From: a virus
Lineage: Duplodnaviria > Heunggongvirae > Uroviricota > Caudoviricetes
IMG/VR virus record: IMGVR_UViG_2778261591_000021
Length of the DNA stretch: 30,329 nucleotides
Reading direction: 5' to 3' (one strand)
The stretch's first letter is position 1, and each line of letters starts with the position of its first letter. The position numbers and the translations under genes are program-made. Below, in pieces: positions 13,984 to 25,306 of this stretch. The notes beneath the pieces are model-generated. The model saw only the letters and a list, made by a program, of their open reading frames with translations, had not been told where the DNA came from and ran no database searches.

Positions 13984-13997
13984 TTCAATGACTCCGG

Positions 13998-14204: not shown

Positions 14205-14272
14205 ATCAATGACTCCGTACGCAATTAAATTATTACCAATTTAACCACATATGATTTATTTATCGTAGATAG

Positions 14273-14309
14273 TTGACATTTAACGCACAAATTATTACCT
14301 TTCAGGTAA
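14273..14309 (+). promoter_or_regulatory. promoter-like TTGACA followed by a TTACC-N5-GGTAA operator-like palindrome
   Basis: TTGACA at 14273-14278; TTACCTTTCAGGTAA at 14295-14309. Same layout as the early promoter at 25090-25132. Points toward the structured region and tRNA. Confidence 0.45.
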
Positions 14310-14329
14310 CCAAAGAGTTCATTCCGGTT

Positions 14330-14631
14330 ACTAACCTGACTGGCTTGTCGTTAAATTGAACAGGTGGAGTGAGCTTTTATTTTGAGCAGTACGGCGTATG
14401 GCACATGCGCCGATAGCGGTCTGGATACGTTTAAGGGGCACCCTCCCTTGCTCGGGCAAACGAACCAGGTAGCCGGAATGTGCAAGTCGAGCGGTTTTAT
14501 TCCGCGCACGGGGATTCACCATCCCGGCGATTCGGTGTGACGCCTCGGAAGAGACGAGGGTACAACGATGAGAGCATTTATGGAGCCGCGACAAAGTGTG
14601 GCGCCTTAACAGGCTAAGTGCTCTCAGCGTT
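14330..14631 (+). other. GC-rich, hairpin-dense non-coding region upstream of the tRNA (candidate structured RNA or tRNA leader)
   Basis: No convincing ORF on either strand. Multiple perfect local hairpins, for example CCTCG-gaagaga-CGAGG and CGGAAT...ATTCCG. Lies between a promoter and the tRNA. Confidence 0.25.
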
Positions 14632-14708
14632 GTGGCATTAGCTCAGTTGGACAGAGCAACCGCCTTCTAAGCGGTTGGTCGCAGGTTCGAATCCTGCATG
14701 CCACGCCA
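14632..14708 (+). tRNA. tRNA-Arg (anticodon TCT, reads AGA)
   Basis: Full cloverleaf: 7-bp acceptor stem GTGGCAT/ATGCCAC, D-arm GCTC/GAGC, anticodon stem ACCGC/GCGGT with loop CTTCTAA, T-arm GCAGG-TTCGAAT-CCTGC, discriminator G and encoded CCA. Resembles but is not identical to an enterobacterial argU-type tRNA as recalled from memory. Confidence 0.85.
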
Positions 14709-14751
14709 GAATCACGCCTAAGGACCGTGATGCCAGAAGTTCCAGGGGCTT

Positions 14752-14795
14752 GGCGGTGATGGTTTCCCTTGAAGGACTATCACCGCCCTTTTTAC
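14752..14795 (+). terminator. rho-independent terminator downstream of the tRNA
   Basis: GGCGGTGAT...ATCACCGCC stem followed by CTTTTTA. Confidence 0.55.
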
Positions 14796-14870
14796 AGCAG
14801 GACGCCATTGCGATGACTTCATGCTGTAAACCAGTACAGCCACGGAAGGCATAACTCATTGCTTCCAGTT

Positions 14871-14896
14871 CGCCCGGTTCGCCGGGCATTTTTTTG
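14871..14896 (+). terminator. rho-independent terminator
   Basis: GCCCGG-ttcg-CCGGGC stem followed by ATTTTTTT. Confidence 0.65.
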
Positions 14897-14900
14897 ATTG

Positions 14901-14929
14901 ATGACCGCAAATTACCTTAAAGGTATAAT
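14901..14929 (+). promoter_or_regulatory. promoter-like element with a perfect -10 TATAAT (14924-14929) overlapped by an operator-like palindrome
   Basis: Palindrome TTACCTTAAAGGTAT at 14912-14926; a possible -35 ATGACC lies 17 bp upstream of the -10. Sits immediately before the moron ORF. Confidence 0.4.
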
Positions 14930-14930
14930 C

Positions 14931-15749
14931 ATGAAAAACTTCAAGGTAATTAGCATGTTTGAATCGTTCAAAGAGCTGTTTTTATCTACTGCCAATACTG
15001 CCGTGAATCGAGCCAAAAACCCTGTGCTTGGTGCTTTTGTTATGTCCTGGTGCGCCTTCAACTGGAAATCAATTCTTTATCTATTTTTTAGCAAATCAAA
15101 CATAATAGATAAAATTTCATATATCTCAGATAACAGCACATGGAAAACTGTTATGTTTTATCCATGCTTATCTGTAATTGCTATCTGCTGCCTATTACCA
15201 TGGGTAAACAATATCATTAACGTATGGCAAGCAAAGCCTCTTGATAATAATGACTCAATCGAAAATCACCTGAAGGCAAGAAAAATCCAGCGTGAAACAA
15301 GACTGCAGAGGTTATTGGCTAAAAAAGATGTTACATACGACAAAGTTAAGACTGGCGCGGAAAAAGACATCCAAGAGATGAAAGAAGAGATTATTCGATC
15401 AAAGAATAGTATGGGGGAATTGACTGCCGAGTTGAAAGCTAAAGATGACGAATTGAGATCCGCCAGTGCACAGTTAGCAGCTCTAAATCATTCATTAAAA
15501 GAGATATCGGAAACTCTTGGAAGAATGAATGAGGCATATAAGACCCTCCAAAATGATTTCGACGAATACAAACTCAAATACCCTGAAAAATCTCAAATAA
15601 AAAGCCTTGCACTTGGCAACGGCCAAACAATTAGCAACGTTTTGGAGCAACACAACTTATCCGGATTAAAATCTGGTAAGCCAAACGTTTTTAATAACTT
15701 TGGTGTTCTATCTGGATTATCAGGTTTCGAGGATAAAAATAAAGACTAA
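14931..15749 (+). CDS. AT-rich accessory (moron) protein, 272 aa: two predicted TM helices plus a long coiled-coil domain; function unknown
   Basis: Opposite strand to all flanking structural genes and visibly AT-rich relative to them. ATG at 14931 has AAAGG upstream; the track ORF starts at TTG 14898. Hydrophobic segments are VLGAFVMSWCAFNWKSILYLFF and VMFYPCLSVIAICCLLPWV; heptad-like charged region from about residue 100 to 220. Confidence 0.6.
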   Translation: MKNFKVISMFESFKELFLSTANTAVNRAKNPVLGAFVMSWCAFNWKSILYLFFSKSNIIDKISYISDNSTWKTVMFYPCLSVIAICCLLPWVNNIINVWQAKPLDNNDSIENHLKARKIQRETRLQRLLAKKDVTYDKVKTGAEKDIQEMKEEIIRSKNSMGELTAELKAKDDELRSASAQLAALNHSLKEISETLGRMNEAYKTLQNDFDEYKLKYPEKSQIKSLALGNGQTISNVLEQHNLSGLKSGKPNVFNNFGVLSGLSGFEDKNKD

Positions 15750-17221
15750 GCATATGGATCGTACTCGGTAAGCGCCTTGCCTTGCTGGTTCTGCTGCCCG
15801 GGAAGTCGCAGGCGCTTTGACACCGGGAAAGCAAACGTCAGCAGTAGCGCATCGCCTTTACCAGGCGAACGCCCAAGTCGTTCTTTGATATCTTCCTTCG
15901 GTTCGATAACGATTTTACCGTCCACGCGAACTTTGTACTCTGCCGCCGACAGATCGTCCGCTGTTTCCTGGTCATCCAGCATCCCGCCCAACCTCAGCCA
16001 TGTCTTGCATGAGTTGAACATCTCCCCGCGCTTGTTAAGCATCTGCGGGTCAGTGGACGCACCGCCGAACGGAACAAGTTGCCATGTACGCCCCCAGCCA
16101 TCACCGATTGACTTCAAACCGGTTCCGTAACCGAAGTCGATGAACACCGCGTCAGCCTGATACTGGTCTTCAAAGTCAGCGATACGCTTCGCCATAATCA
16201 GATCGTCGGTAGTCTTGTTGCCAGTCCATAGCACCTTACTATGCAACCCCTGCCGCAGGTATATCACCGCGTCATCAACGCCTGAATATGCCGGGTCAAC
16301 ACCGATTATCACCGGAGCATGTGCCACCTGCGCAGCGGTTACCACCCGTTTCATTGCCTCATCAGTAAGACCGGTAGGGATAAACTGCAATTCAGATGCA
16401 TCAGGGAATATGCCGCGCACACGGATTTTAACGAAGTCGCTGTCTTCCCCGTAGTCATCAACCCATTTCTGCAACTGCTGTTTGTTAGTACCTTCCACCG
16501 TCCGGCTGTCAATCTGCGCAGTTTTCCAGCGGTGTTTGTATTTGCGGAAACATTCGCGAAAACGCCCGGTATTACGTGTAGGGTTTCCGAACGCCACCCA
16601 GATAATCTCAGTGTCTTCGTCCGTAAGCGCACCCTCAGCAACTTCCCACACCAGATCCGCAATGTTCGACGCTTCATCGAATACCACGATGATGCGTTTG
16701 CGCTCGTTGTGTAGTCCGGCGAATGCCTCAGTGTTGTGCTCAGACCAGGGGATTGCGTCAGCTCGCCACCGCTTGTCGTGCCCAGGATCATTGCTGTACA
16801 TCGCAGTAGCGGTACAGGTAAACCAGTCTTTCGTGATAGCAAGGTTCGACCACTTGATAATTTCCGGCCAGGTCTTCGTTCGTAGCTGGTTGTCGGTGTT
16901 GGCGGTCACCACGACCTTACAATCCTCGCAAGTGGACATGCCCCAGTTGATCAGCATTGAGATGAATGCGGATTTACCAATACCATGACCAGAAGCGCGT
17001 GCCAGCATAAGCGGCTGATAGCGCGTCTCTGGATTCTGCAGGTGATCACGTATCTCTCGGAACGCATCAGCCTGCCACTGACGTGGGCCGGTAGCATGTG
17101 CCAGTTCAGTCCCCTCTTCCCCCCACGGGAACGCATATAGGGCATAGCCAAGCGGATCGTGAGTGAACCCTGCAATATCCTCGATCAACTGCTCTTCAGG
17201 AGATAACGCTGTATCTGTCAC
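15746..17221 (-). CDS. terminase large subunit, 491 aa
   Basis: Walker A-like GHGIGKS, ATPase and nuclease acidic blocks (VVFDEAS, GVDPAYSG), and position after the small subunit with overlapping stop/start. Confidence 0.9.
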   Translation of the reverse strand: MTDTALSPEEQLIEDIAGFTHDPLGYALYAFPWGEEGTELAHATGPRQWQADAFREIRDHLQNPETRYQPLMLARASGHGIGKSAFISMLINWGMSTCEDCKVVVTANTDNQLRTKTWPEIIKWSNLAITKDWFTCTATAMYSNDPGHDKRWRADAIPWSEHNTEAFAGLHNERKRIIVVFDEASNIADLVWEVAEGALTDEDTEIIWVAFGNPTRNTGRFRECFRKYKHRWKTAQIDSRTVEGTNKQQLQKWVDDYGEDSDFVKIRVRGIFPDASELQFIPTGLTDEAMKRVVTAAQVAHAPVIIGVDPAYSGVDDAVIYLRQGLHSKVLWTGNKTTDDLIMAKRIADFEDQYQADAVFIDFGYGTGLKSIGDGWGRTWQLVPFGGASTDPQMLNKRGEMFNSCKTWLRLGGMLDDQETADDLSAAEYKVRVDGKIVIEPKEDIKERLGRSPGKGDALLLTFAFPVSKRLRLPGQQNQQGKALTEYDPYA

Positions 17222-17814
17222 TGATTACCATCCTGACGTTCTTTGAGTCGCTTCCTGGCTGCTGCTATGCGATCAGCAATTGTCACATTCACATTAACAT
17301 CCAGACGTTCTTTGAACGCGTTGACATCAACATGCTTACCAATCAGCTCAAGGTTCTTCACCTTGTCAGGCCATTTAATTTTTTTGAGGATTGTCTCTAT
17401 CGAATCCTCGTTCATGTTCATGATGGTCGATGACAGATCAAAGCCACTAAGCGTAGTGCGCCAGATTTTCGGCCACTCACGGATTGGTTTAAGGCTCCCA
17501 TCGTCGTTGAGGATGTCGATCACGTCCATCTGGTCGATCTCCACCAGGCGCATGAGAACGTAATCAGCACTGACGCGCATTCGTTTGTTGCGCTCCTCCA
17601 TCAACTCGGCAATCCGTTTTTGAATGCGTTCATCGCGCATCATGACACTGGCTTTAACTGCCGCTGTATTTGGGGAGAATCCTGCGTTAATCGCTGCCTG
17701 AGTCTGGTTTTCAGGCGTTTTGATGTATGACTGGCAATAAGCCTCCTGCATTGCTGTTAGTGGCTTAAATTGCGTTGATTTGCGTTTATAGGTTTTAGGT
17801 TCAGCAGGCATCAT
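17218..17814 (-). CDS. terminase small subunit
   Basis: Terminase small-subunit-like sequence with a basic helical C-terminus. Start re-assigned to the ATG at 17814, because the track's TTG-initiated extension to 17892 contains a terminator hairpin. Confidence 0.75.
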   Translation of the reverse strand: MMPAEPKTYKRKSTQFKPLTAMQEAYCQSYIKTPENQTQAAINAGFSPNTAAVKASVMMRDERIQKRIAELMEERNKRMRVSADYVLMRLVEIDQMDVIDILNDDGSLKPIREWPKIWRTTLSGFDLSSTIMNMNEDSIETILKKIKWPDKVKNLELIGKHVDVNAFKERLDVNVNVTIADRIAAARKRLKERQDGNQ

Positions 17815-17821
17815 AACCACC

Positions 17822-17853
17822 GTGGTAATAGTTACCGTTGTGGTAATAGTACC
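17822..17853. repeat. two direct repeats GTGGTAATAGT(T)ACC just upstream of the terminase small-subunit start
   Basis: Copies at 17822-17836 and 17840-17853. Each contains everted GGTAA/TTACC half-sites related to the operator palindrome. Confidence 0.5.
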
Positions 17854-17856
17854 ATG

Positions 17857-17883
17857 CAAAATAAAGCCGCCATAGTTGGCGGC
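17857..17883 (-). terminator. rho-independent terminator immediately upstream of the packaging/late operon
   Basis: Minus strand: GCCGCC-aactat-GGCGGC stem followed by TTTATTTT. Confidence 0.55.
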
Positions 17884-17924
17884 AGTATTCAAAACCCATC
17901 AAATTTATCATGCATAATCTACTC

Positions 17925-17936
17925 GTGACATGTCAC
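17925..17936. repeat. perfect 12-bp palindrome GTGACATGTCAC overlapping the stop of the 115-aa gene
   Basis: Read directly from the sequence; candidate protein-binding site. Confidence 0.5.
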
Positions 17937-18280
17937 ACTATTAATTTCGTTTCATGCCAGCCTTTAGTCACCCAGCATTGCGAGTCACCATTACACGGGC
18001 ATGAATTAACTGGAACTCTCTCGCCGCACTTACCGCAACATTTTCTGCTGATCGATTTTATACGCCCGCGCACGCGTGCATCATCCTGGCGGATCAGTAA
18101 CGCTATATACTCACCAAATTCGTAAGGCGCACGCCCGGGGCGACGCGTGGCACAGTTCCGCGCTAGCATTTCCTGCTCCTGCTTATCCAGCACCAGTTCA
18201 ATTTTGCGCTCACCGGCGGCGGACTGCCGAGCGCGCTGCGCGGCTTTGCGTTCTGCGGGGGATTTAGCCACGAATCGCAC
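17933..18280 (-). CDS. basic protein with C-terminal Cys cluster (CCGKCGERVPVNSCPCNGDSQC), 115 aa; function unknown
   Basis: GTG start in the track with a weak RBS; the true start is uncertain (next ATG is codon 38). Arg/Lys-rich N-terminus and a zinc-ribbon-like C-terminus. Last gene before the terminase genes. Confidence 0.4.
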   Translation of the reverse strand: MRFVAKSPAERKAAQRARQSAAGERKIELVLDKQEQEMLARNCATRRPGRAPYEFGEYIALLIRQDDARVRGRIKSISRKCCGKCGERVPVNSCPCNGDSQCWVTKGWHETKLIV

Positions 18281-18386
18281 TCCACGCCAGATTGATTAAT
18301 GACTCCCAGGTAATATAAACCCGGATACCAGCAGCCAGGCCGAAACCAATCACCATGGCATAAAGCAGAGCGTTGCACTTGTTCAT
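18264..18386 (-). CDS. 40-aa single-pass membrane peptide (MNKCNALLYAMVIGFGLAAGIRVYITWESLINLAWSAIRG)
   Basis: Not in the ORF track (under 60 aa). ATG overlaps the upstream TGA stop as TGATGA, with AGGGGG 7 nt upstream. Hydrophobic core typical of a TM helix. Confidence 0.35.
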   Translation of the reverse strand: MNKCNALLYAMVIGFGLAAGIRVYITWESLINLAWSAIRG

Positions 18387-18949
18387 CACTTCACCCCCTG
18401 CGGCGGTTCCGGTAGCGGCATCCAGTGGGTTACACCGCCAATTGGTTCATCGTCGTCGTACTCCAATGCGGATATATAGAACCCGTCACGACGAGAATAA
18501 GAAATCCCGGACATTACAATGCCATCCGAAACAACAATAATGTCACCCGTTTCTTCCGGCATTCGCTCACTACAGCTTATCCAACTATCCGGAGTTACCG
18601 GATAGTTGCGCATTGCGACCTTTAATGCCTCATAGAAGCAACCTTTCAGATTGTTGAACTGACGCCCATTTAGCGGGACGTGTTCAGTCAGCATGTTGTG
18701 TAATTTCCATGCCGCGTCGTTTACTTCGCTGGATGACAGGGGAGGCAACTTGTAAGTTTGGCTTACAGGTTCGGCACCATGAAGCATGGCGGCGCGGAGT
18801 TTCTGTATCTCCCGTGCCATTATTGCGTCCTGACGAGGAGTGAACATATCACCTGCAATAATTCTGTTTAGTTCCTCGTCAGTGAACTCATAATCATCAG
18901 GAACATTGTGAACCTCAGCATAAAGAGGCTTTTTGGTAGAAATGGTCAT
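18386..18949 (-). CDS. DUF551-type phage protein, 187 aa
   Basis: C-terminal region (ISCSERMPEE...DGFYIS...HWMPLPEPP) matches my recollection of DUF551 as found in lambdoid accessory genes. Confidence 0.5.
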   Translation of the reverse strand: MTISTKKPLYAEVHNVPDDYEFTDEELNRIIAGDMFTPRQDAIMAREIQKLRAAMLHGAEPVSQTYKLPPLSSSEVNDAAWKLHNMLTEHVPLNGRQFNNLKGCFYEALKVAMRNYPVTPDSWISCSERMPEETGDIIVVSDGIVMSGISYSRRDGFYISALEYDDDEPIGGVTHWMPLPEPPQGVK

Positions 18950-19569
18950 CGTAAAACATCCTCCGCACTTACCAGTGCGTTTCGCAAAAGATAATCCATC
19001 GCCCTATCTGGTAATTTGCAATCAGGTTTTGCTTTTTTCAGTTGGCTGACCAATTGTTTAACCAGCACTGTTAATTCGATAACTTGGTAGCGCGGCAATG
19101 GTGAATTATCAGATTTGCCCTGACTGTCTGCGCTGCATGAATGCCCTTCCAGCCATGCCAATGCTTGTCGCATGAAATACGCAATATGTTTGCCGTGGTA
19201 ATCGTCTTCATCGATGTGAAAAGCGATACTGCGGATGTATTCTATTGCATTTTCAATGGCCTCCAACGCTATCGGCGCTGGCGGTGCGGTATAAAACTTC
19301 GTCCCCAGCGGAAACAACTTCATCGCTTTTTCTCCCTTAATGATGCGATAAGTTGATTCTCCGCCAAGGTCTACCGTTCCATCCATAATAAGGCCGTATC
19401 GCTTCTCTGAAACTTCACCAATAGGATCTGCTTCCAGTGATGCCAGTGCAATTTTAAATGCGGTAAGCATGTTGCTTTGATCTTCATTGAGTCCGAACGG
19501 TATTTCATCCCGTGCTGACTCAATGCTGGTAATCGTTTTCTGTAGCCATTCTTTGGTAATAGTGGTCAT
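18946..19569 (-). CDS. hypothetical phage protein, 207 aa (Ead/Ea22-region type)
   Basis: Operon context with overlapping stop/start; acidic protein. Confidence 0.45.
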   Translation of the reverse strand: MTTITKEWLQKTITSIESARDEIPFGLNEDQSNMLTAFKIALASLEADPIGEVSEKRYGLIMDGTVDLGGESTYRIIKGEKAMKLFPLGTKFYTAPPAPIALEAIENAIEYIRSIAFHIDEDDYHGKHIAYFMRQALAWLEGHSCSADSQGKSDNSPLPRYQVIELTVLVKQLVSQLKKAKPDCKLPDRAMDYLLRNALVSAEDVLR

Positions 19570-19571
19570 AG

Positions 19572-19763
19572 CTATTTCACCTTAATCTCAACATTTCGCA
19601 GCTTTAGCTCTACTGGCAGGTCTGACTTTCCGGTTAATGCTAATGCGAGATTTTCTGGAGTAATGAGAGCAGTTATTGTTCTACCCATCGCCAGACGAAT
19701 AATCATTCGTATCTCGCAATCGTCACATGCTCCCGGTCGAACAATTGATATTTGTCCATTCAT
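19572..19763 (-). CDS. small hypothetical protein, 63 aa, with Cys pair (CDDC)
   Basis: ATG at 19763 lies directly after the upstream stop at 19765; the track ORF extends further upstream into the preceding gene. Confidence 0.35.
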   Translation of the reverse strand: MNGQISIVRPGACDDCEIRMIIRLAMGRTITALITPENLALALTGKSDLPVELKLRNVEIKVK

Positions 19764-19764
19764 C

Positions 19765-20481
19765 TCACACTCCTTTGATGCGAATGCCAGCGGCGCGGAT
19801 TGCATCGATGACTTCAGAAACTTTGTATGCCATTACCGTTTGGTAATCATCGTGAAAATCTGTTCGATGAAGCATGCTGCTACGTTCCGGGAGCAGTATT
19901 TCCCGATCCTCCAGTTCTGCTATGCGCTTCTCTGCTGATTCCAGCTTCTCGCGCATATCGTCAACGTACTCGACCAGAGAACCGCCAGCAGGAATTTCGC
20001 ACTCCTCGACCAGTTGGAAGTAGATATCAGCTGCGGCCCGTGTGTTGCTATGCCTAGCGTCGCCCATCTCACCTTCACGAAGAGCATCGCGTTCGGCGGT
20101 AAGATTGGCTATTTTGCTGTCTTTGCCTTCCAGCTCAACACGCAGCTTCCCTACCGTTAGCGCAATATCCTCGTTCTCCTGGTCGCGGCGTTTGATGTAT
20201 TGCTGGTTTCTTTCCCGTTCATCCAGTAGTGCCAAGACGGTAGCGGGATTGGCTGCGGCGATGAATTCAGCATTGGCCTGCTGTTCCATTTGGAAATCTT
20301 CATCGAAACCGCTTTCAGGATGCGCTCCTTCAATTCTGCAAATAGGAATATATCCAGCAACTTCACGATGAATTAGCGCATCATCACCATCAAATCGGCT
20401 CTCTCCATATTCGAGCGACCACTCACCACACGTTGCTTTTTCTGCCGCTTCACGCAGTGCCTGATAGTCAATCTTGCTCAC
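19765..20481 (-). CDS. Ea22-like protein, 238 aa
   Basis: Contains the block EFIAAANPATVLALLDERE recalled as characteristic of lambdoid Ea22-family proteins; central coiled coil. Confidence 0.5.
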   Translation of the reverse strand: MSKIDYQALREAAEKATCGEWSLEYGESRFDGDDALIHREVAGYIPICRIEGAHPESGFDEDFQMEQQANAEFIAAANPATVLALLDERERNQQYIKRRDQENEDIALTVGKLRVELEGKDSKIANLTAERDALREGEMGDARHSNTRAAADIYFQLVEECEIPAGGSLVEYVDDMREKLESAEKRIAELEDREILLPERSSMLHRTDFHDDYQTVMAYKVSEVIDAIRAAGIRIKGV

Positions 20482-20927
20482 TGGTTGCCTCCTTTGCGAA
20501 GCTGGGCAGCAAAGTCACGGATAGTGTCATCAAGGTCTGGGCACAACAGATGGTCAGCAAACATCTCCACGCCCTGCGCCCGTACTTCAGCCAGGAAAGC
20601 GTCGGTGGCTGGGGTGTCTGATTGCAGAGACTTTGCGCGATAGTCATTCCACCCTCTTGCATACATGGGATTAACTTGCACTCCATCTTTTACGCAATAT
20701 GCCTGCCCTCCACGGTTGATAAACTTGATTTCGTCCATAGCGCCAGACTTCAGCCCCGCATTCTCCGCTGCCAGCGCATTAGCACGCACCAGTTGCACTT
20801 CCAGTTGCGTTGCCAAATCGCTGATCAGCTTTGCCACACTGCGCATATCAACGGCACCACATTCTGCTTTCAGTTCCGAAGCCATCTCATGCCCGGCGGC
20901 AACTAACCCTTTGATATTACTTTCCAT
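20478..20927 (-). CDS. hypothetical protein, 149 aa
   Basis: ATG with GAGGG RBS, in operon. Confidence 0.45.
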   Translation of the reverse strand: MESNIKGLVAAGHEMASELKAECGAVDMRSVAKLISDLATQLEVQLVRANALAAENAGLKSGAMDEIKFINRGGQAYCVKDGVQVNPMYARGWNDYRAKSLQSDTPATDAFLAEVRAQGVEMFADHLLCPDLDDTIRDFAAQLRKGGNQ

Positions 20928-20972
20928 CTTTACCCTCGCTTATCCACATAACTTATTGATTACATTGATAAC

Positions 20973-21006
20973 TAAAAAGATCGTCGATTCATGCCGATCT
21001 ATTTTT
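20973..21006. terminator. hairpin AGATCG...CGATCT flanked by T-runs on both strands (bidirectional terminator-like)
   Basis: 6-bp stem with 11-nt loop overlapping the HNH gene stop; TTTTTA follows on the minus strand and ATTTTTCAT on the plus strand. Confidence 0.35.
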
Positions 21007-21597
21007 CATCAGTGATTCATAAAACTTTTGCCACTTATGCCGACCGAAATTAGCCTTCGAGTTACAGCTCGAACAAAGGCAAATAAGGTTCTCCTGACGA
21101 CAGTCTTGCTTGTCGTAATTGATGTGATGAGTTGTTAGCCTTTTGTCTGTTCCATCACAACCTGGGTTCTGACAAGTAAAACCATCTCGCTCAATAACCC
21201 TCTTGCTCGTTTCTCGGAAATCCCACGGATACGGCAATCTCGATAATCCACCAGACCAGTTTGGATTTCCTTCCCCCTTCATCAGAGAAGAACGCATTAT
21301 GTTGGAACACTGTTTCGAGCAGCATTTATGACGCTTCTCATGACTCAAGAAAACGGAGAACGAAGATCCGCATACGCAGCATATTTTTAATACTCGCTTT
21401 AGTTCCCGATTTACCGTCTTGCCTCGCTGTGAAATTCCTACACACTGAAGTGAGCAGAACCTTGAAGATGAGTTGGCTCGCTTAACCTGATATTGCCTGC
21501 CACATACGGAGCAAACCTTTTCGATTTTCCCACCCTTCCAATTCGGGTTTTTATCACCGGATACAATCAATCCCGCAGCATTGGGCTTCTCGCTCAT
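20989..21597 (-). CDS. HNH endonuclease with N-terminal zinc-ribbon repeats, 202 aa
   Basis: Repeated NPNWKGG/NPNWSGG motifs and CxxC pairs; C-terminal HNH core (CQNPGC...THHINYDK...NLICLCSSCNSK). Confidence 0.7.
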   Translation of the reverse strand: MSEKPNAAGLIVSGDKNPNWKGGKIEKVCSVCGRQYQVKRANSSSRFCSLQCVGISQRGKTVNRELKRVLKICCVCGSSFSVFLSHEKRHKCCSKQCSNIMRSSLMKGEGNPNWSGGLSRLPYPWDFRETSKRVIERDGFTCQNPGCDGTDKRLTTHHINYDKQDCRQENLICLCSSCNSKANFGRHKWQKFYESLMKNRSA

Positions 21598-21947
21598 AGT
21601 TCCTCAACCTCCCATCCACCACCGAGCTTTTTAGGTTTTGGATAAGCAACCTGAAAGACAAACGGATAGCTGTCTGCCGCAACCTTCATCTTGACTCTCG
21701 CATCGTCAGTAAAGACTGACTTACTTCCCTTAACGTCCACCATCACCAACTGCCCGTCAGCCAACATCACGGCAAAATCTACAGTCAGGAAGCAGTTGTC
21801 AGCTAACCGCAGCTTGAGACCATCGAATCGATACCAGGCGATTTCCCCTGCACGTTTACGCTGCTCAAGGTGCTGGCAATACGCAGATTCTGTTTTGTTC
21901 ATCTGACCTGTTTTGAGTCGACCAAGAGCCTGTATCTGTTTTCTCAT
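21594..21947 (-). CDS. DUF1064-like (PD-(D/E)xK nuclease-fold) phage protein, 117 aa
   Basis: Pattern E...Y...L...DF.V...DG...DVKG typical of a small phage nuclease-fold family. AGGGG RBS. First gene after an operator-flanked promoter. Confidence 0.45.
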   Translation of the reverse strand: MRKQIQALGRLKTGQMNKTESAYCQHLEQRKRAGEIAWYRFDGLKLRLADNCFLTVDFAVMLADGQLVMVDVKGSKSVFTDDARVKMKVAADSYPFVFQVAYPKPKKLGGGWEVEEL

Positions 21948-21950
21948 GAT

Positions 21951-22027
21951 TTACCCCTGAGGTAATTAAAAACCACATAAGACACGAAATCAATAGATTT
22001 TAGTATATTTTATTACCCGCCAGGTAA
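21951..22027 (-). promoter_or_regulatory. internal promoter (TTGATT-N17-TTTAAT on the minus strand) flanked by two TTACC-N5-GGTAA operator-like palindromes
   Basis: Sites at 21951-21965 (overlaps the start region and RBS of the DUF1064 gene) and 22013-22027 (upstream of the -35). Confidence 0.45.
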
Positions 22028-22037
22028 TCATTTAGGA

Positions 22038-22059
22038 GTAAAAAAATGCGCTATCGCGC
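22038..22059 (-). terminator. weak terminator-like element after the P-like gene
   Basis: 4-bp GC stem (GCGC-gata-GCGC) followed by ATTTTTTT on the minus strand; the stem is short. Confidence 0.3.
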
Positions 22060-22064
22060 TGGTA

Positions 22065-22865
22065 TTACTTGATAAATCCTGCCGCCTTTCCCCGCCTGTA
22101 TTCCTCCATCAGCCACTGTGCCGGTGTTATTCCACCCAGGGTGGCGGCGTTAGGCATGCACCCGAAACTTCGCCCTGGTGGATGGTAAACGTCTCTCCCT
22201 GTGTCCGGAGGTGTACTCATGGGTTCTGGCTTTGCCTGTATGCTGATCACCGGATCGGGTATCTGCTGTCCGGAAGCCACCTTTTTCGCCCAATCATCGA
22301 GCAACCTGCGCGCGTGTTTCTCAACCTCAATCTCGCTAAGCTGGCGCTGATACATTGCACGGCGGGTATCACATACGACCCAGTACATAACCGGATGTCG
22401 CCACGGGAATCTTTCTGGACCACCAGGATATAAACTTTTTTCCTTGCTGTACCGGTGAAACTCCGCCATCACATCGTCAATGGTGACGCCAAGAACCATC
22501 TTGCTGTCTTTGCACCACTTGATGAATTGCCCAGGCGACGGCCAGAACGGAGATTCACTGGCGCGGGCGTGGCGCATACCAGCAGAAACCTGTTCACGGG
22601 TTCGGATCCCACCTTCGGCAAACGCAGCAATCCACTGCTGTTTTGCAGCAACTTCCTGCTCTGGCGTCTTCAGGTTGGTTACCACTGCCGCCGGAAACAG
22701 CTGTTTCAGCTGTTTGAAAAGGGCATCAACAAGCCTCTCTGCTGACATGTTCACCACATTGTCATTGTTGACGTACTGATGCTCATAACCTGACATGCGA
22801 GAAAGGGCTTCTCCGTCATGGTTTTGTATCGCGGTAAAAACGTTGTTCACAAGAAATCCTCCCAT
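22065..22865 (-). CDS. replication protein P-like (replicative helicase loader), 266 aa
   Basis: Recalled similarity to lambda P blocks (SPGQF.xWC, YP..FPW....YW.V, RRLLDDW...G..IP.PV) and position directly after the O-like gene. The first 19 nt overlap the O-like gene. Confidence 0.7.
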   Translation of the reverse strand: MGGFLVNNVFTAIQNHDGEALSRMSGYEHQYVNNDNVVNMSAERLVDALFKQLKQLFPAAVVTNLKTPEQEVAAKQQWIAAFAEGGIRTREQVSAGMRHARASESPFWPSPGQFIKWCKDSKMVLGVTIDDVMAEFHRYSKEKSLYPGGPERFPWRHPVMYWVVCDTRRAMYQRQLSEIEVEKHARRLLDDWAKKVASGQQIPDPVISIQAKPEPMSTPPDTGRDVYHPPGRSFGCMPNAATLGGITPAQWLMEEYRRGKAAGFIK

Positions 22866-23662
22866 GCTTCAGGGCTGTTCCAGTGCGGAACGTTGTTATC
22901 AGGTAATGTTGATTGCTTCTGTCTGCTAATCTGCAGCCGCCTTGCCAGCTTCTGCTCCCACTGTGCCTGATGGTATGCCTTACCCTCAGCCATCCAGTAA
23001 ATTCTGAACTCTGCAAGTTCCTGTGCCGTTGGCAGACTGTCCAGGTAGATCCCCTGCAATGAGCTTTTCCGAAGAAAGTCATCTGATGGCTGCCATTGTT
23101 CATGCATGACAAATTTGCCTAATTGCCCTGGCCCACCAGGAGGAACAAAGTTATTCATCACGGCGTTGTTTGCGCCGGGGTCATGATGCACAGAATCCCC
23201 GTTTTTTGTCCTGCTCTCCCTCTCTTGGTTAAATGACTGGTTATATGACTGGTTCTGGATCCCGTTTTTGGGATCATTCAACATCCCGTTTTTGGGATCA
23301 TTCAACATCCCGTTTTTGGGTATATTCCCGTTTTCGGGTATATTCCCGTTTTCGGGTTCATTGCCCCCCTCCCGGTTGCCTTTAATGTTCCCGTTTTTGG
23401 TTATATTAAGAGAGAAAACCCGCACTCTTTTTGTCGCTCCCTTTCTATCTCCGGTATCTGAAATAAGCCCCATTTTCATGAGCGATATAAGCCCGGCCTG
23501 CACGGTTTTTTTATTCAGGCAAGTGTCTTTAACGAGGCGTTCTATGCTGGGGTAGCAGAGGTTATATTCATCGGCTCTGTCAGCCATCGAGAGCAGTATG
23601 AGCTTTAATGATGAGCTACCTGGATCTGTCTCCCAGGCCCAATCTGTTGCATGTCTGCTCAT
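22847..23662 (-). CDS. replication initiator O-like protein with internal iteron array, 271 aa
   Basis: N-terminal HTH-type initiator region; central PENGNI/PKNGMLND peptide repeats are encoded by the DNA iterons; position before the P-like gene. Confidence 0.65.
   Translation of the reverse strand: MSRHATDWAWETDPGSSSLKLILLSMADRADEYNLCYPSIERLVKDTCLNKKTVQAGLISLMKMGLISDTGDRKGATKRVRVFSLNITKNGNIKGNREGGNEPENGNIPENGNIPKNGMLNDPKNGMLNDPKNGIQNQSYNQSFNQERESRTKNGDSVHHDPGANNAVMNNFVPPGGPGQLGKFVMHEQWQPSDDFLRKSSLQGIYLDSLPTAQELAEFRIYWMAEGKAYHQAQWEQKLARRLQISRQKQSTLPDNNVPHWNSPEAWEDFL
23259..23407. repeat. origin-like iteron array: six copies of core CCCGTTTT(T/C)GG, including two perfect 24-bp tandem units
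   Basis: Units ATCCCGTTTTTGGGATCATTCAAC at 23259-23282 and 23283-23306, with further copies near 23309, 23327, 23345 and 23390; a direct repeat ATGACTGGTT x2 is adjacent. Confidence 0.7.
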
Positions 23663-23677
23663 GATTAATCTCCGCTA

Positions 23678-23878
23678 TCAGCTTGAGTGTTGTGGGGAGG
23701 AATTAATCATGATCTGCTTAATCTCTGCCCTGATGCGACGGTTTGATTCCATGGTGCACTCAACACAGTGTCCGTTGTAAACCCAGCGTTCACTGTCATG
23801 TCCGTGCTTACATGGTTTTCCGGTGTAATAGCGTTTAAGTCCGCGCTTTGCGGCATCAATACGTGTAATGATTTCCAT
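23678..23878 (-). CDS. small Zn-finger-like protein (CKHGH...HCVEC), about 66 aa, at the cII position
   Basis: Internal ATG at 23878 preferred over the hydrophobic N-terminal extension in the track. Cys/His cluster. Located between the cro-like and O-like genes. Confidence 0.35.
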   Translation of the reverse strand: MEIITRIDAAKRGLKRYYTGKPCKHGHDSERWVYNGHCVECTMESNRRIRAEIKQIMINSSPQHSS

Positions 23879-23958
23879 GGTAAGCCCTGTTATTAGTATT
23901 GGGATTACGGTTATTTTGTGCTGACACAAAAAAAAGATCAACCATATTTGGTTTTTTA

Positions 23959-23973
23959 TTACCTTTGAGGTAC
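23959..23973. promoter_or_regulatory. operator-like palindrome TTACCTTTGAGGTAC
   Basis: Lies between the cro-like gene terminator and the Zn-finger gene. Confidence 0.4.
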
Positions 23974-23982
23974 GAATAGATA

Positions 23983-24007
23983 TGAAAAGACCGCCGGATG
24001 GCGGTCT
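23983..24007 (-). terminator. rho-independent terminator downstream of the cro-like gene (tR1-like position)
   Basis: Minus strand: 8-bp stem AGACCGCC-atcc-GGCGGTCT followed by TTTTC. Confidence 0.6.
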
Positions 24008-24028
24008 ACAGAGGGTTGTGGCTGGATA

Positions 24029-24259
24029 TCATGAGTAGAAGAAGTATGCCAATTCTGCTTTTGAGCGCAGCCATTGTCTTGTTTTACAGGCTTTAAAAAG
24101 CCCATTCATCAATACCTTACCTGGCATTTTGCGCTTACCTGTTAAGTGAGTCTGGATATAGTGACTCGTCGTTCCGGCTTCCTGTGCGAAGGCTTCACGC
24201 TCATCCGGAGTAAGTGCAAGCCAGTGCTTTTTGAAATCGAAATGTCCGTTATCGCTCAT
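24029..24259 (-). CDS. Cro-like HTH DNA-binding protein, 76 aa
   Basis: Divergent from the repressor-like gene across an operator-containing intergenic region; HTH-like segment EREAFAQEAGTTSHYIQTHLTGKR. Confidence 0.5.
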   Translation of the reverse strand: MSDNGHFDFKKHWLALTPDEREAFAQEAGTTSHYIQTHLTGKRKMPGKVLMNGLFKACKTRQWLRSKAELAYFFYS

Positions 24260-24295
24260 AGCTATTGCCTGATATTTATTTCAGATAATAAATAT

Positions 24296-24358
24296 TCACC
24301 CATAAGGTAACAAAAATCAAGGATAGTTACCTGTGGGGTGCATTTACCTGTTGGGTAA
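24296..24358. promoter_or_regulatory. immunity-region operator cluster: three TTACC-N5-GGTAA-type sites between the divergent cro-like and repressor-like genes
   Basis: TCACCCATAAGGTAA at 24296-24310, TTACCTGTGGGGTGC at 24327-24341, TTACCTGTTGGGTAA at 24344-24358. Confidence 0.55.
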
Positions 24359-24413
24359 TATTGCTTTAAATTGAATCATCTACTGATTCATATATGAGGC
24401 GATTTTCCAGAAA

Positions 24414-24998
24414 ATGAAAAGTATCCAGGACGTCCGCAGGCAAAATCTCAACGACTTGATCGACCGTGAATTCAATGGTGTTCAGACGCGGATGGCAGAA
24501 AAACTTGGAACTCAGGCAAATCTGGTAAACCGCTGGGCTCTTGGCAAGAAGGTTATCGGCGACCAGGTTGCGCGAAAAATTGAAGCTGCCGCCAATAAAC
24601 CCCGTAACTGGCTTGATATCGATCGCTCGCTTTCTCAGGAAGGTTTTCAGCCTGTCGGCCCAAGCGACATTGGTCAGCTGGCGGCTCACAACCTGGAACG
24701 CTGGATGAGCGAAAGCCGCGACCTTTCAACGCAGGGAAAACTTCACCGCGCATCCGGCGTCGCCCAGGTGACAATCAGTCGCCTGTTAAACAATGAGGTC
24801 AGCGTTTCCATTTCCACCCTGGAGAATGTTGCATCCGCATTCGGGCGTCACGGATATGAACTACTGATTCACCCGCACGACCCTGCGACTATCAACTATG
24901 ACCGCTCACGCTACGCATTGTTACCCGAAACCGAGAAAGCAAAGATCGAAAGTTACATTGAATTTGTCATCAACCAGAACGAAAAAAGCAAACAATAA
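24414..24998 (+). CDS. repressor-like protein with two tandem XRE-type HTH domains and no LexA/S24 peptidase domain, 194 aa
   Basis: HTH 1: TRMAEKLGTQANLVNRWALGKK. HTH 2: KLHRASGVAQVTISRLLNNEVSVSISTLENVASAFG. Occupies the cI position and is followed by its own terminator. Confidence 0.6.
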   Translation: MKSIQDVRRQNLNDLIDREFNGVQTRMAEKLGTQANLVNRWALGKKVIGDQVARKIEAAANKPRNWLDIDRSLSQEGFQPVGPSDIGQLAAHNLERWMSESRDLSTQGKLHRASGVAQVTISRLLNNEVSVSISTLENVASAFGRHGYELLIHPHDPATINYDRSRYALLPETEKAKIESYIEFVINQNEKSKQ

Positions 24999-25018
24999 AA
25001 CTATATTTTTCAGTAAGT

Positions 25019-25043
25019 AAGCCGCCTCATGGCGGCTTTTTTA
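25019..25043 (+). terminator. rho-independent terminator after the repressor-like gene
   Basis: AAGCCGCC-tcat-GGCGGCTT stem followed by TTTTATT. Confidence 0.65.
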
Positions 25044-25055
25044 TTGCCAGATAGA

Positions 25056-25132
25056 TTACCTTACGGGTAATTTTTTTAACTCATATCTATTGACACCAAA
25101 CCAAATAAGCATAATTATTACCTCAACGGTAA
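25056..25132 (+). promoter_or_regulatory. early-left-type promoter (TTGACA at 25090-25095) bracketed by two operator palindromes
   Basis: TTACCTTACGGGTAA at 25056-25070 and TTACCTCAACGGTAA at 25118-25132; the downstream site overlaps the -10 and transcription start region. Confidence 0.55.
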
Positions 25133-25151
25133 CAGACCGAGGTAACAAGTT

Positions 25152-25304: not shown

Positions 25305-25306
25305 TA

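What the first reader, a model, noticed from the sequence alone, without database searches (positions are those of the whole stretch)
14295..25132. A 15-bp palindrome TTACC-N5-GGTAA recurs at ten intergenic sites, linking immunity, replication, accessory and moron promoters
Sites were read at 14295, 14912, 21951, 22013, 23959, 24296, 24327, 24344, 25056 and 25118 (each 15 bp). Three lie between the divergent repressor-like and cro-like genes and two bracket the early-left promoter, which is the classic operator arrangement. The same palindrome also overlaps promoter-like elements in front of the DUF1064/HNH cluster, in front of the structured-RNA/tRNA unit, and directly over the -10 of the moron gene. 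This implies one DNA-binding protein, most likely the tandem-HTH repressor, controls far more than the immunity region. Two directly repeated copies of an everted half-site arrangement (GGTAA-N3-TTACC) also sit just upstream of the terminase small-subunit gene.
Basis: seen in the sequence. Interest (0 to 1): 0.75.

Follow-up and report, generated by a model that had tools for sequence, protein, structure and literature searches.

The report
Repressor operators scattered across a prophage
The repeated palindrome TTACC-N5-GGTAA is real and is the operator of the repressor of an epsilon15/phiV10-type prophage, sitting on almost every promoter of the phage; the same scattered sites are already annotated as repressor-binding sites in phage epsilon15, so this is a good rediscovery, not a new system.

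Summary
The motif is real. The window has 7 exact copies (0.01 expected), 4 with one mismatch, and one two-mismatch copy whose counterpart is perfect in relatives. All 12 lie in the 6.4% of the window that is non-coding. Its "everted repeat" before the small terminase gene is two ordinary palindromes 18 bp apart.

The window is a Uetakevirus prophage, 97.6% identical to phiV10 in the immunity/replication region. Its 194-aa repressor is a full-length homologue of SPC32H Rep (PDB 5D50, E=3.5e-42). Epsilon15, SPC32H, Tyrion and a Klebsiella relative carry the motif at the same positions. Half-sites are 97% identical across them, spacers 54%. The epsilon15 GenBank record already labels seven such sites "repressor; lysogeny", including sites before terminase and portal genes.

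The sites overlap the -10/+1 or the spacer of PR, PL, a DUF1064-operon promoter, a tRNA-Arg promoter, an accessory-gene promoter and a likely late promoter. At PL and the DUF1064 promoter, two operators flank the promoter 62 bp apart in every lineage (63 at one Klebsiella site). That fits one Rep tetramer holding both, which is my inference.

Binding was not tested here. Verdict: new member of a known kind, modest interest.

The parts
24414..24998 (+). Rep, the prophage repressor (194 aa). It has an N-terminal DNA-binding HTH domain and a second HTH-like domain plus a C-terminal oligomerisation region.
   Evidence: Full-length match to SPC32H Rep, PDB 5D50, E=3.5e-42. Pfam finds HTH_3 at residues 106-147 and a weak HTH at 21-61, with no peptidase S24 domain. 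It is 99.5% identical to the phiV10 and ZX5 repressors. The helix NLVNRW (residues 36-41) is invariant across four clades.
24029..24259 (-). Cro-like small regulator (76 aa), transcribed divergently from rep.
   Evidence: phrog_35 'transcriptional repressor', E=5.6e-13. It is 58-84% identical across clades, with the stretch AGTTSHYIQ.HLT nearly invariant (one T/V change in the Klebsiella phage).
24296..24310 (.). OR1 (TCACCCATAAGGTAA, one mismatch). It lies in the spacer and -10 of the candidate rightward promoter PR (minus strand: TTGATT 24320-24315, GAATAT 24297-24292).
   Evidence: The -35 TTGATT is invariant in six phages. The promoter scan offers an alternative, TTGTTA-17-TATTAT at 24313-24285.
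24327..24341 (.). OR2 (TTACCTGTGGGGTGC, two mismatches).
   Evidence: Its counterpart is a perfect TTACC-N5-GGTAA in epsilon15, SPC32H and the Klebsiella phage. On its own it is weak (matrix score 3.6).
24344..24358 (.). OR3 (exact), 17 bp from OR2. It covers the candidate rep promoter TTTACC (24343-24348)-17-TTAAAT (24366-24371).
   Evidence: The promoter assignment is my inference from invariant columns.
25056..25070 (.). Distal OL operator (exact), 18 nt after the rep terminator (25019-25038) and upstream of the PL -35.
25090..25118 (+). PL, the early-left promoter: TTGACA-17-AATTAT.
   Evidence: Promoter scan, 10 of 12 matches. The block CTATTGAC is invariant in six phages.
25118..25132 (.). 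Proximal OL operator (exact). It starts at the last base of the PL -10 and is 62 bp from the distal site.
23959..23973 (.). Weak operator (one mismatch). It lies after the cro terminator (24007-23988) and about 60 bp upstream of a conserved promoter-like element on the minus strand (TTGATC 23941-23936, CAAAAT 23918-23913). That element precedes the small gene 23678-23878 and the replication genes.
   Evidence: The right half GGTAAT is invariant in five phages; the left half is degenerate (nnACC). The promoter is my inference.
22013..22027 (.). Distal operator (exact) of the DUF1064-operon promoter, just after the terminator of the replication genes (about 22040-22059).
   Evidence: The terminator is annotated at the equivalent place in phiV10.
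21951..21965 (.). Proximal operator (exact) of the same promoter (minus strand: TTGATT 21992-21987, 16-nt spacer, TTTAAT 21970-21965). It is 62 bp from the distal site and ends 3 nt before the DUF1064 start codon (21947).
17832..17846 (.). First late-region operator (exact). It lies directly after a conserved extended -10-like element on the minus strand (TGGTACTAT, 17854-17846) and after a terminator (17883-17866).
   Evidence: The epsilon15 counterpart (12-27) is annotated 'repressor'. The promoter is my inference.
17814..17828 (.). Second late-region operator (one mismatch), 18 bp from the first. It abuts the start codon of the small terminase gene (ATG at 17814 or 17811, minus strand).
   Evidence: Small terminase: Pfam Terminase_2, E=1e-29.
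14295..14309 (.). Operator (exact) between the gp3/portal genes (minus strand) and the leader-RNA/tRNA-Arg unit (plus strand). Its left half supplies the -10 (TACCTT, 14296-14301) of the promoter TTGACA (14273-14278)-17-TACCTT.
   Evidence: The epsilon15 counterpart (2931-2947) is annotated 'repressor'.
14233..14237 (.). Lone half-site TTACC, exactly 62 bp from the 14295 operator, inside a sequence block that is invariant in five phages. On the minus strand it reads TGGTAATAAT, a possible extended -10 for gp3/portal.
   Evidence: The function is my inference, with low confidence.
14632..14708 (+). tRNA-Arg (anticodon UCU). It is preceded by a roughly 330-nt leader and lies downstream of the operator-covered promoter.
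14912..14926 (.). Operator (one mismatch, GGTAT) in the spacer of the accessory-gene promoter ATGACC (14901)-17-TATAAT (14924-14929). Its right half overlaps the -10.
   Evidence: It is kept in a 92%-identical variant and, as CTACCATAACGGTAT-ACT, in the same register before the Klebsiella homologue.
14955..15749 (+). Accessory gene of unknown function (phrog_4780). It sits in a variable cargo slot between the tRNA unit and the large terminase gene.
   Evidence: phrog_4780, E=1e-136, with the profile starting at ATG 14955. Found in 56 of 5426 E. coli genomes; in the listed hits it lies beside the terminase gene.

Best explanation
The palindromes are the operators of the prophage repressor Rep (24414-24998), a homologue of the tetrameric, antirepressor-controlled Rep of Salmonella phage SPC32H and of epsilon15 gp38. 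Each 15-bp site would take two N-terminal HTH domains, one per TTACC half-site.

The phage genome is cut into separate transcription units by rho-independent terminators. Nearly every unit restarts at a sigma-70-type promoter that carries its own operator. The operator lies over the -10/+1, inside the -35/-10 spacer, or both proximally and 62 bp upstream. In the lysogen Rep would therefore shut off each of the following directly, by keeping RNA polymerase off the promoter:
- PR and PL;
- the replication and DUF1064 operons;
- the tRNA-Arg unit;
- an accessory gene;
- probably the packaging/late genes.

OR3 over the rep promoter would give negative autoregulation.

Shown here: the motif's enrichment, its restriction to intergenic DNA, its overlap with promoter-like elements, its positional and half-site conservation across six phages, and the homology of Rep.

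Inferred: that Rep is the binder, that the Cro-like protein uses the same sites during lytic growth, and that the 62-bp and 17-18-bp pairs are each held by one Rep tetramer.
For: 1. Enrichment. There are 7 exact sites against 0.01 expected. It is the most frequent 5-Nk-5 palindrome found de novo in the window, SPC32H and Tyrion. The weight-matrix scores show a clear gap between 11.4 and 6.5.

2. Location. All 12 sites are intergenic, in a window that is 6.4% intergenic. Host DNA is at background level.

3. Family context. The immunity/replication region is 97.6% identical to phiV10, genus Uetakevirus. The epsilon15 GenBank record labels seven TTACC-N5-GGTAA sites 'protein_bind: repressor; lysogeny'. 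These include sites before the small terminase gene, before gp3/portal, between ant and the tailspike gene, at OL, and before the resolvase operon.

4. Conservation. Counterpart sites occur in phiV10, Tyrion, Klebsiella BUCT711, epsilon15 and SPC32H. Pairwise identity is 0.97 in half-sites and 0.54 in spacers, against an overall 0.46-0.67 for those intergenic alignments.

5. The protein.
- Rep aligns over its full length with SPC32H Rep 5D50, E=3.5e-42.
- It has no S24 peptidase domain.
- The putative recognition helix NLVNRW is invariant although overall identity falls to 43%.
- The N-terminal domain is more conserved than the C-terminal part: 53-90% against 39-74%.
- Overexpressing the 99.5%-identical ZX5 repressor abolished free phage and cut holin and endolysin mRNA by more than 99.9% (PMC9782041).

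6. Promoter overlap.
- At PL, TTGACA-17-AATTAT ends on the first base of the proximal operator.
- At the accessory promoter, the TATAAT overlaps the operator.
- The same register is seen at the DUF1064 and small-terminase sites.

7. Tetramer model.
- SPC32H Rep binds DNA as a tetramer, and the domain pairs that read a palindrome come from different dimers (PMC9638917).
- It has a p53-like tetramerisation domain built on Phe187/Phe190, with two domain pairs about 100 Å apart (PMC9986798).
- The window protein has Tyr181/Phe184 at those positions.
- Operator pairs 62 bp apart at PL and the DUF1064 promoter recur in the window, phiV10, strain 1436, Tyrion, epsilon15 and SPC32H. In Klebsiella they are 62 and 63 bp apart.
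Against: - No binding, footprint or expression data exist for this prophage.
- I could not read the primary papers on epsilon15 and SPC32H. How much of the operator assignment in those phages is experimental rather than predicted rests on my memory and on the GenBank annotation.
- Most promoter assignments are consensus matches, and the promoter scan as a whole is not enriched over shuffles: 13 found against 16.2 expected.
- The Cro-like protein is equally conserved, so sequence covariation cannot say which protein reads the scattered sites.
- A 62-bp bridge by one tetramer needs a sharp DNA bend. The constant spacing could instead reflect a conserved promoter with its upstream A/T tract.
- The site at 23959 does not follow the 62-bp rule. 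Its spacing to a degenerate half-site is 59-60 bp.
Confidence: 0.85

Rival explanations
1. The scattered sites are read mainly by the Cro-like protein (24029-24259), not by Rep. They would serve to turn early and accessory promoters down during lytic growth, while Rep acts only at OR and OL.
For: The Cro-like protein is a predicted HTH repressor (phrog_35). It is more conserved than Rep (58-84% against 43-78% identity) and keeps the stretch AGTTSHYIQ.HLT nearly invariant in every clade that keeps the TTACC half-site. In lambda-type switches, Cro and CI share operators (established knowledge).
Against: The epsilon15 record assigns the scattered sites to the repressor. Overexpressing Rep alone silences late lysis genes in ZX5. 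Paired sites fit a tetramer with four DNA-binding domains better than a 76-aa Cro. The two readings are not exclusive, and shared use of the sites is the most likely outcome.
Confidence: 0.1
2. The sites downstream of terminators, especially the tandem pair before the small terminase gene and the site after the cro terminator, do not occlude promoters. They act as roadblocks: bound repressor stops polymerases that read through the terminator. This is how mycobacteriophage L5 stoperators work.
For: Five sites lie 12-25 nt after a rho-independent terminator. The pair at 17814/17832 has no strong -35 nearby, and the scan finds no canonical promoter there.
Against: The sites are symmetric, with no orientation bias. 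A conserved TGnTACTAT extended -10-like element directly precedes the terminase-proximal pair in the window, epsilon15, SPC32H and Tyrion. The other post-terminator sites are the distal partners of operators that overlap clear promoters.
Confidence: 0.15
3. The recurrence is not a protein-binding signal. It would be a by-product of duplicated promoter cassettes, or chance.
For: Several modules share extra sequence such as CTATTGA and ATTATTACC, so some duplication of promoter cassettes is plausible.
Against: Chance is excluded. Duplication alone does not explain why half-sites stay 97% identical while the 5-bp spacers and flanks diverge in six lineages. It also does not explain why the palindrome occurs in three different registers relative to promoters.
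Confidence: 0.02

Closest known systems
Predicted repressor-binding sites of Salmonella phage epsilon15 (GenBank AY150271.2; Kropinski et al. 2007, Virology 369:234, not readable here)
   Same: Same genus, same TTACC-N5-GGTAA palindrome, and the same positions: before the small terminase gene, before gp3/portal, at OL, and before the resolvase/DUF1064 operon. The tripartite OR has the same 17 and 30-31 bp spacings.
   Different: The window's repressor is only 43% identical to epsilon15 gp38. The epsilon15 record labels 7 of its 15 sites and none of the three OR sites. The accessory-gene operator (14912) has no epsilon15 counterpart, and the post-cro site is much weaker in epsilon15.
SPC32H Rep/Ant switch (Kim & Ryu 2013, J Virol; Kim et al. 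2016, PNAS; PDB 5D50 and 5D4Z)
   Same: Full-length homologous repressor with no autocleavage domain. The SPC32H genome carries the same motif at the same places. It binds palindromic sites as a tetramer (PMC9638917).
   Different: The antirepressor gene and its LexA-controlled promoter lie outside this window, so that half of the system could not be examined. The C-terminal, Ant-binding part is only about 39% identical.
Lambda CI/Cro with OR1-3 and OL1-3
   Same: Divergent repressor and cro genes with three operators between them, operators at the early-left promoter, and an operator over the repressor's own promoter.
   Different: Operators are not confined to the immunity region. The repressor has no RecA-dependent cleavage domain. 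Operator pairs flank promoters at 62 bp instead of lying side by side.
Mycobacteriophage L5 gp71 'stoperators'
   Same: One repressor with many sites scattered through the genome, including the late region.
   Different: L5 sites are asymmetric 13-mers that act in one orientation inside transcribed DNA to stop elongation (established knowledge). Here the sites are palindromes that overlap promoter elements.
Looping repressors with a p53-like tetramerisation domain (Rco of plasmid pLS20; PMC9986798)
   Same: The same domain order as SPC32H Rep: a DNA-binding domain plus a C-terminal tetramerisation domain, proposed to bridge separated sites. The conserved 62-bp operator pairs here would suit such bridging.
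   Different: Looping or bridging has not been shown for any Uetakevirus Rep. The paper itself says the repression mechanism of SPC32H Rep 'has not been extensively characterized'.

Membership tests
Epsilon15/SPC32H-type Rep operator set (Uetakevirus) | Operator is the hyphenated palindrome TTACC-N5-GGTAA, often extended to ATTACC...GGTAAT. | tested here: met
   7 exact and 4 one-mismatch sites in the window. The same motif is enriched in epsilon15 (15 sites), SPC32H, Tyrion and Klebsiella BUCT711 (13 sites).
Epsilon15/SPC32H-type Rep operator set (Uetakevirus) | Sites occupy the same intergenic positions as in epsilon15 and SPC32H. | tested here: met
   Alignments A1-A5 and A8. Half-site identity 0.97 against spacer identity 0.54.
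Epsilon15/SPC32H-type Rep operator set (Uetakevirus) | The phage encodes a Rep homologue of about 195 aa with two HTH-type domains and no S24 autocleavage domain. | tested here: met
   PDB 5D50, E=3.5e-42, residues 1-190 aligned to 2-197. Pfam finds HTH families only.
Epsilon15/SPC32H-type Rep operator set (Uetakevirus) | Rep forms a tetramer through C-terminal aromatic residues (Phe187/Phe190 in SPC32H). | tested here: inconclusive
   The aligned residues are Tyr181 and Phe184, and Phe184 is invariant (residue roles from PMC9986798). The oligomeric state was not modelled or measured.
Epsilon15/SPC32H-type Rep operator set (Uetakevirus) | Induction works through a small antirepressor (Ant) whose promoter is controlled by LexA. 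| not testable with these tools
   The ant/tailspike region lies outside the 30-kb window. Relatives carry an operator in that region.
Epsilon15/SPC32H-type Rep operator set (Uetakevirus) | Rep physically binds these sites and represses the adjacent promoters. | not testable with these tools
   There is only indirect support. Overexpressing the 99.5%-identical ZX5 repressor blocks phage production and late transcripts.
Lambda-type CI/Cro immunity switch | Divergent repressor and cro genes separated by three operators, with further operators at PL. | tested here: met
   OR sites at 24296, 24327 and 24344; OL sites at 25056 and 25118.
Lambda-type CI/Cro immunity switch | The repressor carries a RecA-stimulated self-cleaving S24 peptidase domain. 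| tested here: not met
   No Peptidase_S24 hit. The homologue SPC32H Rep is inactivated by an antirepressor.
Lambda-type CI/Cro immunity switch | Operators are confined to the immunity region, and later genes are controlled by antitermination. | tested here: not met
   Seven of the 12 sites lie outside the immunity region, at 14295, 14912, 17814, 17832, 21951, 22013 and 23959. Antiterminators were not searched for.
Mycobacteriophage L5-type stoperators | Asymmetric sites in one orientation inside transcribed regions that block elongation. | tested here: not met
   The sites are palindromic and overlap -10, spacer or +1 positions of promoter-like elements.

The most novel reading that the evidence does not exclude
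Uetakevirus phages may run on a flat, one-tier circuit. Every transcription unit is insulated by a terminator and gated directly by the same repressor, with no antitermination cascade. In this window the units are PR, PL, replication, the DUF1064 operon, the tRNA unit, cargo genes and packaging/late genes; relatives add ant/tailspike, lysis and attP. A strictly conserved 62-bp operator pair would let one p53-like Rep tetramer clamp a promoter from both sides. The operator and both recognition helices are frozen across phages of E. coli, Salmonella, Enterobacter and Klebsiella, while the Ant-binding part of Rep diverges. Immunity specificity in this genus would then lie in the Rep-Ant pairing rather than in operator recognition.
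Probability: 0.35. Interest if true: 0.45.

Novelty: new member of a known kind. Interest (0 to 1): 0.25.

Why it matters
The result gives a complete, testable operator and promoter map for the phiV10-type prophages, whose DNA was found in 565 of the 5426 complete E. coli genomes searched. The phiV10 GenBank record annotates no operators. The one open paper I found on this lineage, on phage ZX5, defines none either.

The map predicts that the phage tRNA-Arg(UCU) and a cargo gene are silent in the lysogen and switched on together with the lytic genes.

It also points to the conserved 62-bp operator pair as a simple handle for testing how the tetrameric SPC32H-type repressor works on DNA. A recent structural paper describes that mechanism as poorly characterised.

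The concept itself is not new. Scattered repressor sites are already annotated in epsilon15.

Tried and rejected
1. The three key papers could not be read. They are epsilon15 (DOI and PMC2698709) and SPC32H (PMC3807360, PMC4983836); none is held. Statements about what they show are from memory, from citing papers or from the GenBank record.

2. Covariation could not separate Rep from Cro. Both proteins keep their putative recognition helices in all four clades and the half-site never changes.

3. I tried to extend the 62-bp promoter module to the site at 23959. This failed: its spacing to a putative proximal half-site is 59-60 bp, and that half-site is degenerate outside epsilon15 and SPC32H.

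4. It is the junction of two normal palindromes.

5. I asked whether the accessory-gene site (14912) is a chance one-mismatch hit inside an imported cassette. It is not: homology to phiV10 ends at 14895, but the site is kept in a 92% variant and in register in a Klebsiella homologue. A different cargo gene in strain 1436 has neither its own promoter nor an operator.

6. A second palindrome, GTGACATGTCAC, was tested for recurrence. It occurs once in the window, which is not enriched.

7. Rfam gives no family for the tRNA leader.

8. No complete E. coli genome in the collection covers at least 80% of 13900-25400 in one piece, so the exact source genome was not identified.

9. Loci L002 and L005 never appeared in the scripting area. 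Their sites were taken from the search and alignment tools instead.

Full report
**1. The observation**

A search for TTACC-N5-GGTAA finds seven exact copies in the 30,329-base window, at 14295, 17832, 21951, 22013, 24344, 25056 and 25118. Dinucleotide-preserving shuffles give a mean of 0.01 and never reach seven. Allowing one mismatch adds 14912, 17814, 23959 and 24296.

Two further copies were read as something else. The 'everted GGTAA-N3-TTACC repeat' before the small terminase gene is the junction between two ordinary palindromes, 17814 and 17832, placed 18 bp apart.

Several independent checks agree.
- A count of all 5-Nk-5 palindromes puts TTACC-N5-GGTAA first in the window, in SPC32H and in Tyrion.
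- A weight matrix trained only on SPC32H and Tyrion sites scores eleven window positions at 11.4-23.8 and the next best at 6.5. Eight of the eleven beat the best score in every one of 200 shuffles.
- With my gene calls, 6.4% of the window is intergenic, and none of the twelve sites overlaps a gene.
- A 50-kb stretch of E. coli chromosome has no exact copy and three one-mismatch copies, against 1.0 expected.

**2. What the element is**

The immunity/replication region (21500-25400) is 97.6% identical to Escherichia phage phiV10, genus Uetakevirus, the epsilon15-like podoviruses. Similar DNA is present in 565 of 5426 complete E. coli genomes.

The 194-aa product of 24414-24998 aligns over its whole length with the repressor of Salmonella phage SPC32H (PDB 5D50, E=3.5e-42). 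Pfam finds only HTH-type families and no S24 self-cleavage domain. The product of 24029-24259 is a small Cro-like HTH protein (phrog_35).

Phage ZX5 has a repressor 99.5% identical to this one. Overexpressing it abolished free phage and reduced holin and endolysin transcripts by more than 99.9% (PMC9782041). That paper defines no operators, and the phiV10 GenBank record annotates only terminators.

**3. The motif is already annotated in the genus**

The GenBank record of epsilon15 (AY150271.2) carries seven features 'protein_bind: repressor; lysogeny'. They lie:
- before the small terminase gene (12-27);
- before gp3/portal (2931-2947);
- between gp19 (the counterpart of SPC32H ant) and the tailspike gene (19895-19911);
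- at the early-left region (32479-32494, 32554-32570, 32616-32632);
- before the resolvase operon (35906-35922).

Every one is TTACC-N5-GGTAA. Epsilon15 has 11 exact and 4 one-mismatch copies in all. SPC32H, Tyrion, the Klebsiella phage BUCT711 and a prophage in E. coli strain 1436 show the same enrichment.

I could not open the epsilon15 genome paper or the two SPC32H papers. How far binding has been shown experimentally rests on my memory of them and on papers that cite them. Those say Rep binds palindromic sites as a tetramer and is disassembled by the antirepressor Ant.

**4. Comparative evidence for function**

I aligned the regulatory regions of the window with phiV10, Tyrion, BUCT711, epsilon15 and SPC32H. 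The repressors of these phages are 43-99.5% identical to the window's.

The operators sit at the same positions throughout. Their ten half-site bases have a mean pairwise identity of 0.97, the five spacer bases 0.54, and the alignments overall 0.46-0.67. This is the pattern expected of a dimeric HTH site under selection.

- The weak 24327 site is a perfect palindrome in epsilon15, SPC32H and BUCT711.
- The post-cro site 23959 keeps an invariant right half (GGTAAT) and a degenerate left half in all five phages aligned there.

In Rep the helix NLVNRW (residues 36-41) is invariant. The N-terminal domain is better conserved than the C-terminal part: 53-90% against 39-74%. The Cro-like protein also keeps the stretch AGTTSHYIQ.HLT nearly invariant. 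Covariation therefore cannot say which of the two proteins reads the scattered sites. By analogy with lambda, both probably do.

**5. Anatomy: a genome of separately gated units**

Each site lies at a promoter-like element. Five lie just downstream of a rho-independent terminator that closes the preceding unit. All promoter assignments below are consensus matches supported by conservation; none has been mapped experimentally.

- **OR.** Three operators lie between cro and rep, spaced 31 and 17 bp. OR1 occupies the spacer and -10 of the invariant TTGATT promoter for cro. OR3 covers an invariant TTTACC-17-TTAAAT that may be the rep promoter.
- **PL.** TTGACA-17-AATTAT scores 10 of 12 in the scan. 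The last base of its -10 is the first base of the proximal operator (25118). A distal operator (25056) lies 62 bp upstream, right after the rep terminator.
- **DUF1064-operon promoter.** It has the same layout on the minus strand: terminator, distal operator 22013, TTGATT-16-TTTAAT, then proximal operator 21951, again 62 bp apart.
- **Small terminase (late) region.** After a terminator (17883-17866) comes a conserved TGnTACTAT, which is extended -10-like. It is followed in the same register by two operators 18 bp apart that run up to the start codon. I read this as a Rep-controlled late promoter. A roadblock function is the alternative.
- **tRNA/gp3 region.** TTGACA-17-TACCTT uses the left half of operator 14295 as its -10. 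It points into a 330-nt leader and tRNA-Arg(UCU). Exactly 62 bp away, in a block invariant in five phages, is a lone TTACC half-site. On the other strand it reads TGGTAATAAT, possibly an extended -10 for gp3/portal. This last point has low confidence.
- **Accessory gene.** In ATGACC-17-TATAAT the operator fills the spacer and overlaps the -10. Homology to phiV10 stops at 14895, so this promoter belongs to the cargo cassette. The operator is nevertheless kept in a 92% variant and, in the same register, before the Klebsiella homologue. The gene most likely starts at ATG 14955.
- **Post-cro site.** Site 23959 lies about 60 bp upstream of a conserved TTGATC-17-CAAAAT. It does not obey the 62-bp rule.

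**6. Mechanism**

The best-supported reading is steric repression. Rep on a proximal or spacer operator keeps RNA polymerase from forming an open complex.

The start-to-start distance of the operator pairs at PL and at the DUF1064 promoter is 62 bp in the window, phiV10, strain 1436, Tyrion, epsilon15 and SPC32H. In BUCT711 it is 62 and 63 bp. The sequence between the operators diverges. Sixty-two base pairs is close to six helical turns, so both sites face the same side of the DNA.

SPC32H Rep is a tetramer with four DNA-binding domains, and the pair that reads one palindrome comes from different dimers (PMC9638917). It has a p53-like tetramerisation domain built on Phe187/Phe190, with two domain pairs about 100 Å apart (PMC9986798). 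The window protein has Tyr181/Phe184 at those positions.

One tetramer holding two palindromes is therefore plausible, either adjacent (17-18 bp) or flanking a promoter (62 bp, which needs a bent intervening segment). It has not been shown. The constant spacing could also reflect a conserved promoter with its upstream A/T tract.

**7. Comparison and novelty**

As a system this works like a lambda-type switch at OR and OL. It differs in three ways: the operators extend far beyond the immunity region, the repressor has no RecA-cleavable domain, and operator pairs flank promoters.

It resembles the many-site L5 repressor system only in being scattered. L5 sites are asymmetric and act on elongation.

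It is a member of the epsilon15/SPC32H Rep operator family on every feature I could test: motif, positions, and repressor homology and architecture. Two defining features could not be tested here, physical binding and the Ant/LexA induction arm; the latter lies outside the window.

The scattered distribution, including sites at late genes, is already annotated in epsilon15. I therefore rate this a new member of a known kind. New elements are modest:
- a full operator and promoter map for the phiV10 lineage;
- the cargo-gene operator;
- the conserved 62-bp pair;
- the observation that operator and recognition helices are frozen across four host genera while the Ant-binding part of Rep diverges.

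**8. Verdict**

Interest is 0.25.

Noticed in passing
window 23226-23357: Three adjoining tandem-repeat arrays lie inside the DnaT-like replication gene (22847-23662): 12 bp x 2.4 copies, 24 bp x 2.6 copies at 100% identity, and 18 bp x 2.8 copies. Each 24-bp unit contains a small hairpin. They look like iterons of a replication origin embedded in the initiator gene, as in the lambda O gene.
   Followed up: partly
window 17925-17936; L003 (SPC32H) 2145, 19634, 26696, 38629: A perfect 12-bp palindrome, GTGACATGTCAC, sits directly after the stop codon of the gp49-like gene (phrog_536, 'transcriptional regulator') and before the terminator that precedes the small terminase gene. SPC32H has three exact copies and one near-exact copy, all at the 3' ends of operons. 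It may be a second regulatory or termination-linked site.
   Followed up: partly
window 14303-14631: A leader of about 330 nt lies between the operator-covered promoter and tRNA-Arg(UCU). It folds somewhat better than shuffles (z = -2.69) and matches no Rfam family. It is at least 98% conserved in phiV10-type phages. The epsilon15 record marks an RNase III processing site in the equivalent region.
   Followed up: partly
window 14225-14270: A block of about 45 bp (TTAAATTATTACCAATTTAACCACATATGATTTATTTA..CGTAG) is almost invariant in phages of E. coli, Salmonella, Enterobacter and Klebsiella. It is more conserved than the surrounding genes' regulatory DNA. The lone TTACC half-site alone does not explain this. 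Candidates are a late promoter for gp3/portal or a binding site for another factor.
   Followed up: no
window 14896-15749; L008 14217-14588: The slot between the tRNA unit and the large terminase gene holds different cargo in different prophages. Here it is a phrog_4780 gene with its own operator-bearing promoter, found in 56 of 5426 E. coli genomes. In strain 1436 it is a 'Gp49 family' gene with no promoter of its own. The likely start of the window gene is ATG 14955, not the first in-frame ATG at 14931.
   Followed up: partly
Rep 24414-24998 and Cro-like 24029-24259, compared with L002-L005: The operator half-sites and both putative recognition helices are nearly unchanged (one conservative substitution) across four Rep clades that are only 43-78% identical overall. 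The C-terminal part of Rep, which binds Ant in SPC32H, falls to about 39%. These phages may therefore cross-repress, and their immunity specificity may lie in the Rep-Ant pairing.
   Followed up: no
L002 (epsilon15) 33341, 33358, 33388, 35969, 30, 24704, 26882: The epsilon15 GenBank record labels only 7 of its 15 TTACC-N5-GGTAA sites as repressor-binding. It omits all three sites between the repressor gene and gp39, the proximal site before the resolvase gene, the second site before the small terminase gene, and sites before the lysis genes and near attP.
   Followed up: yes
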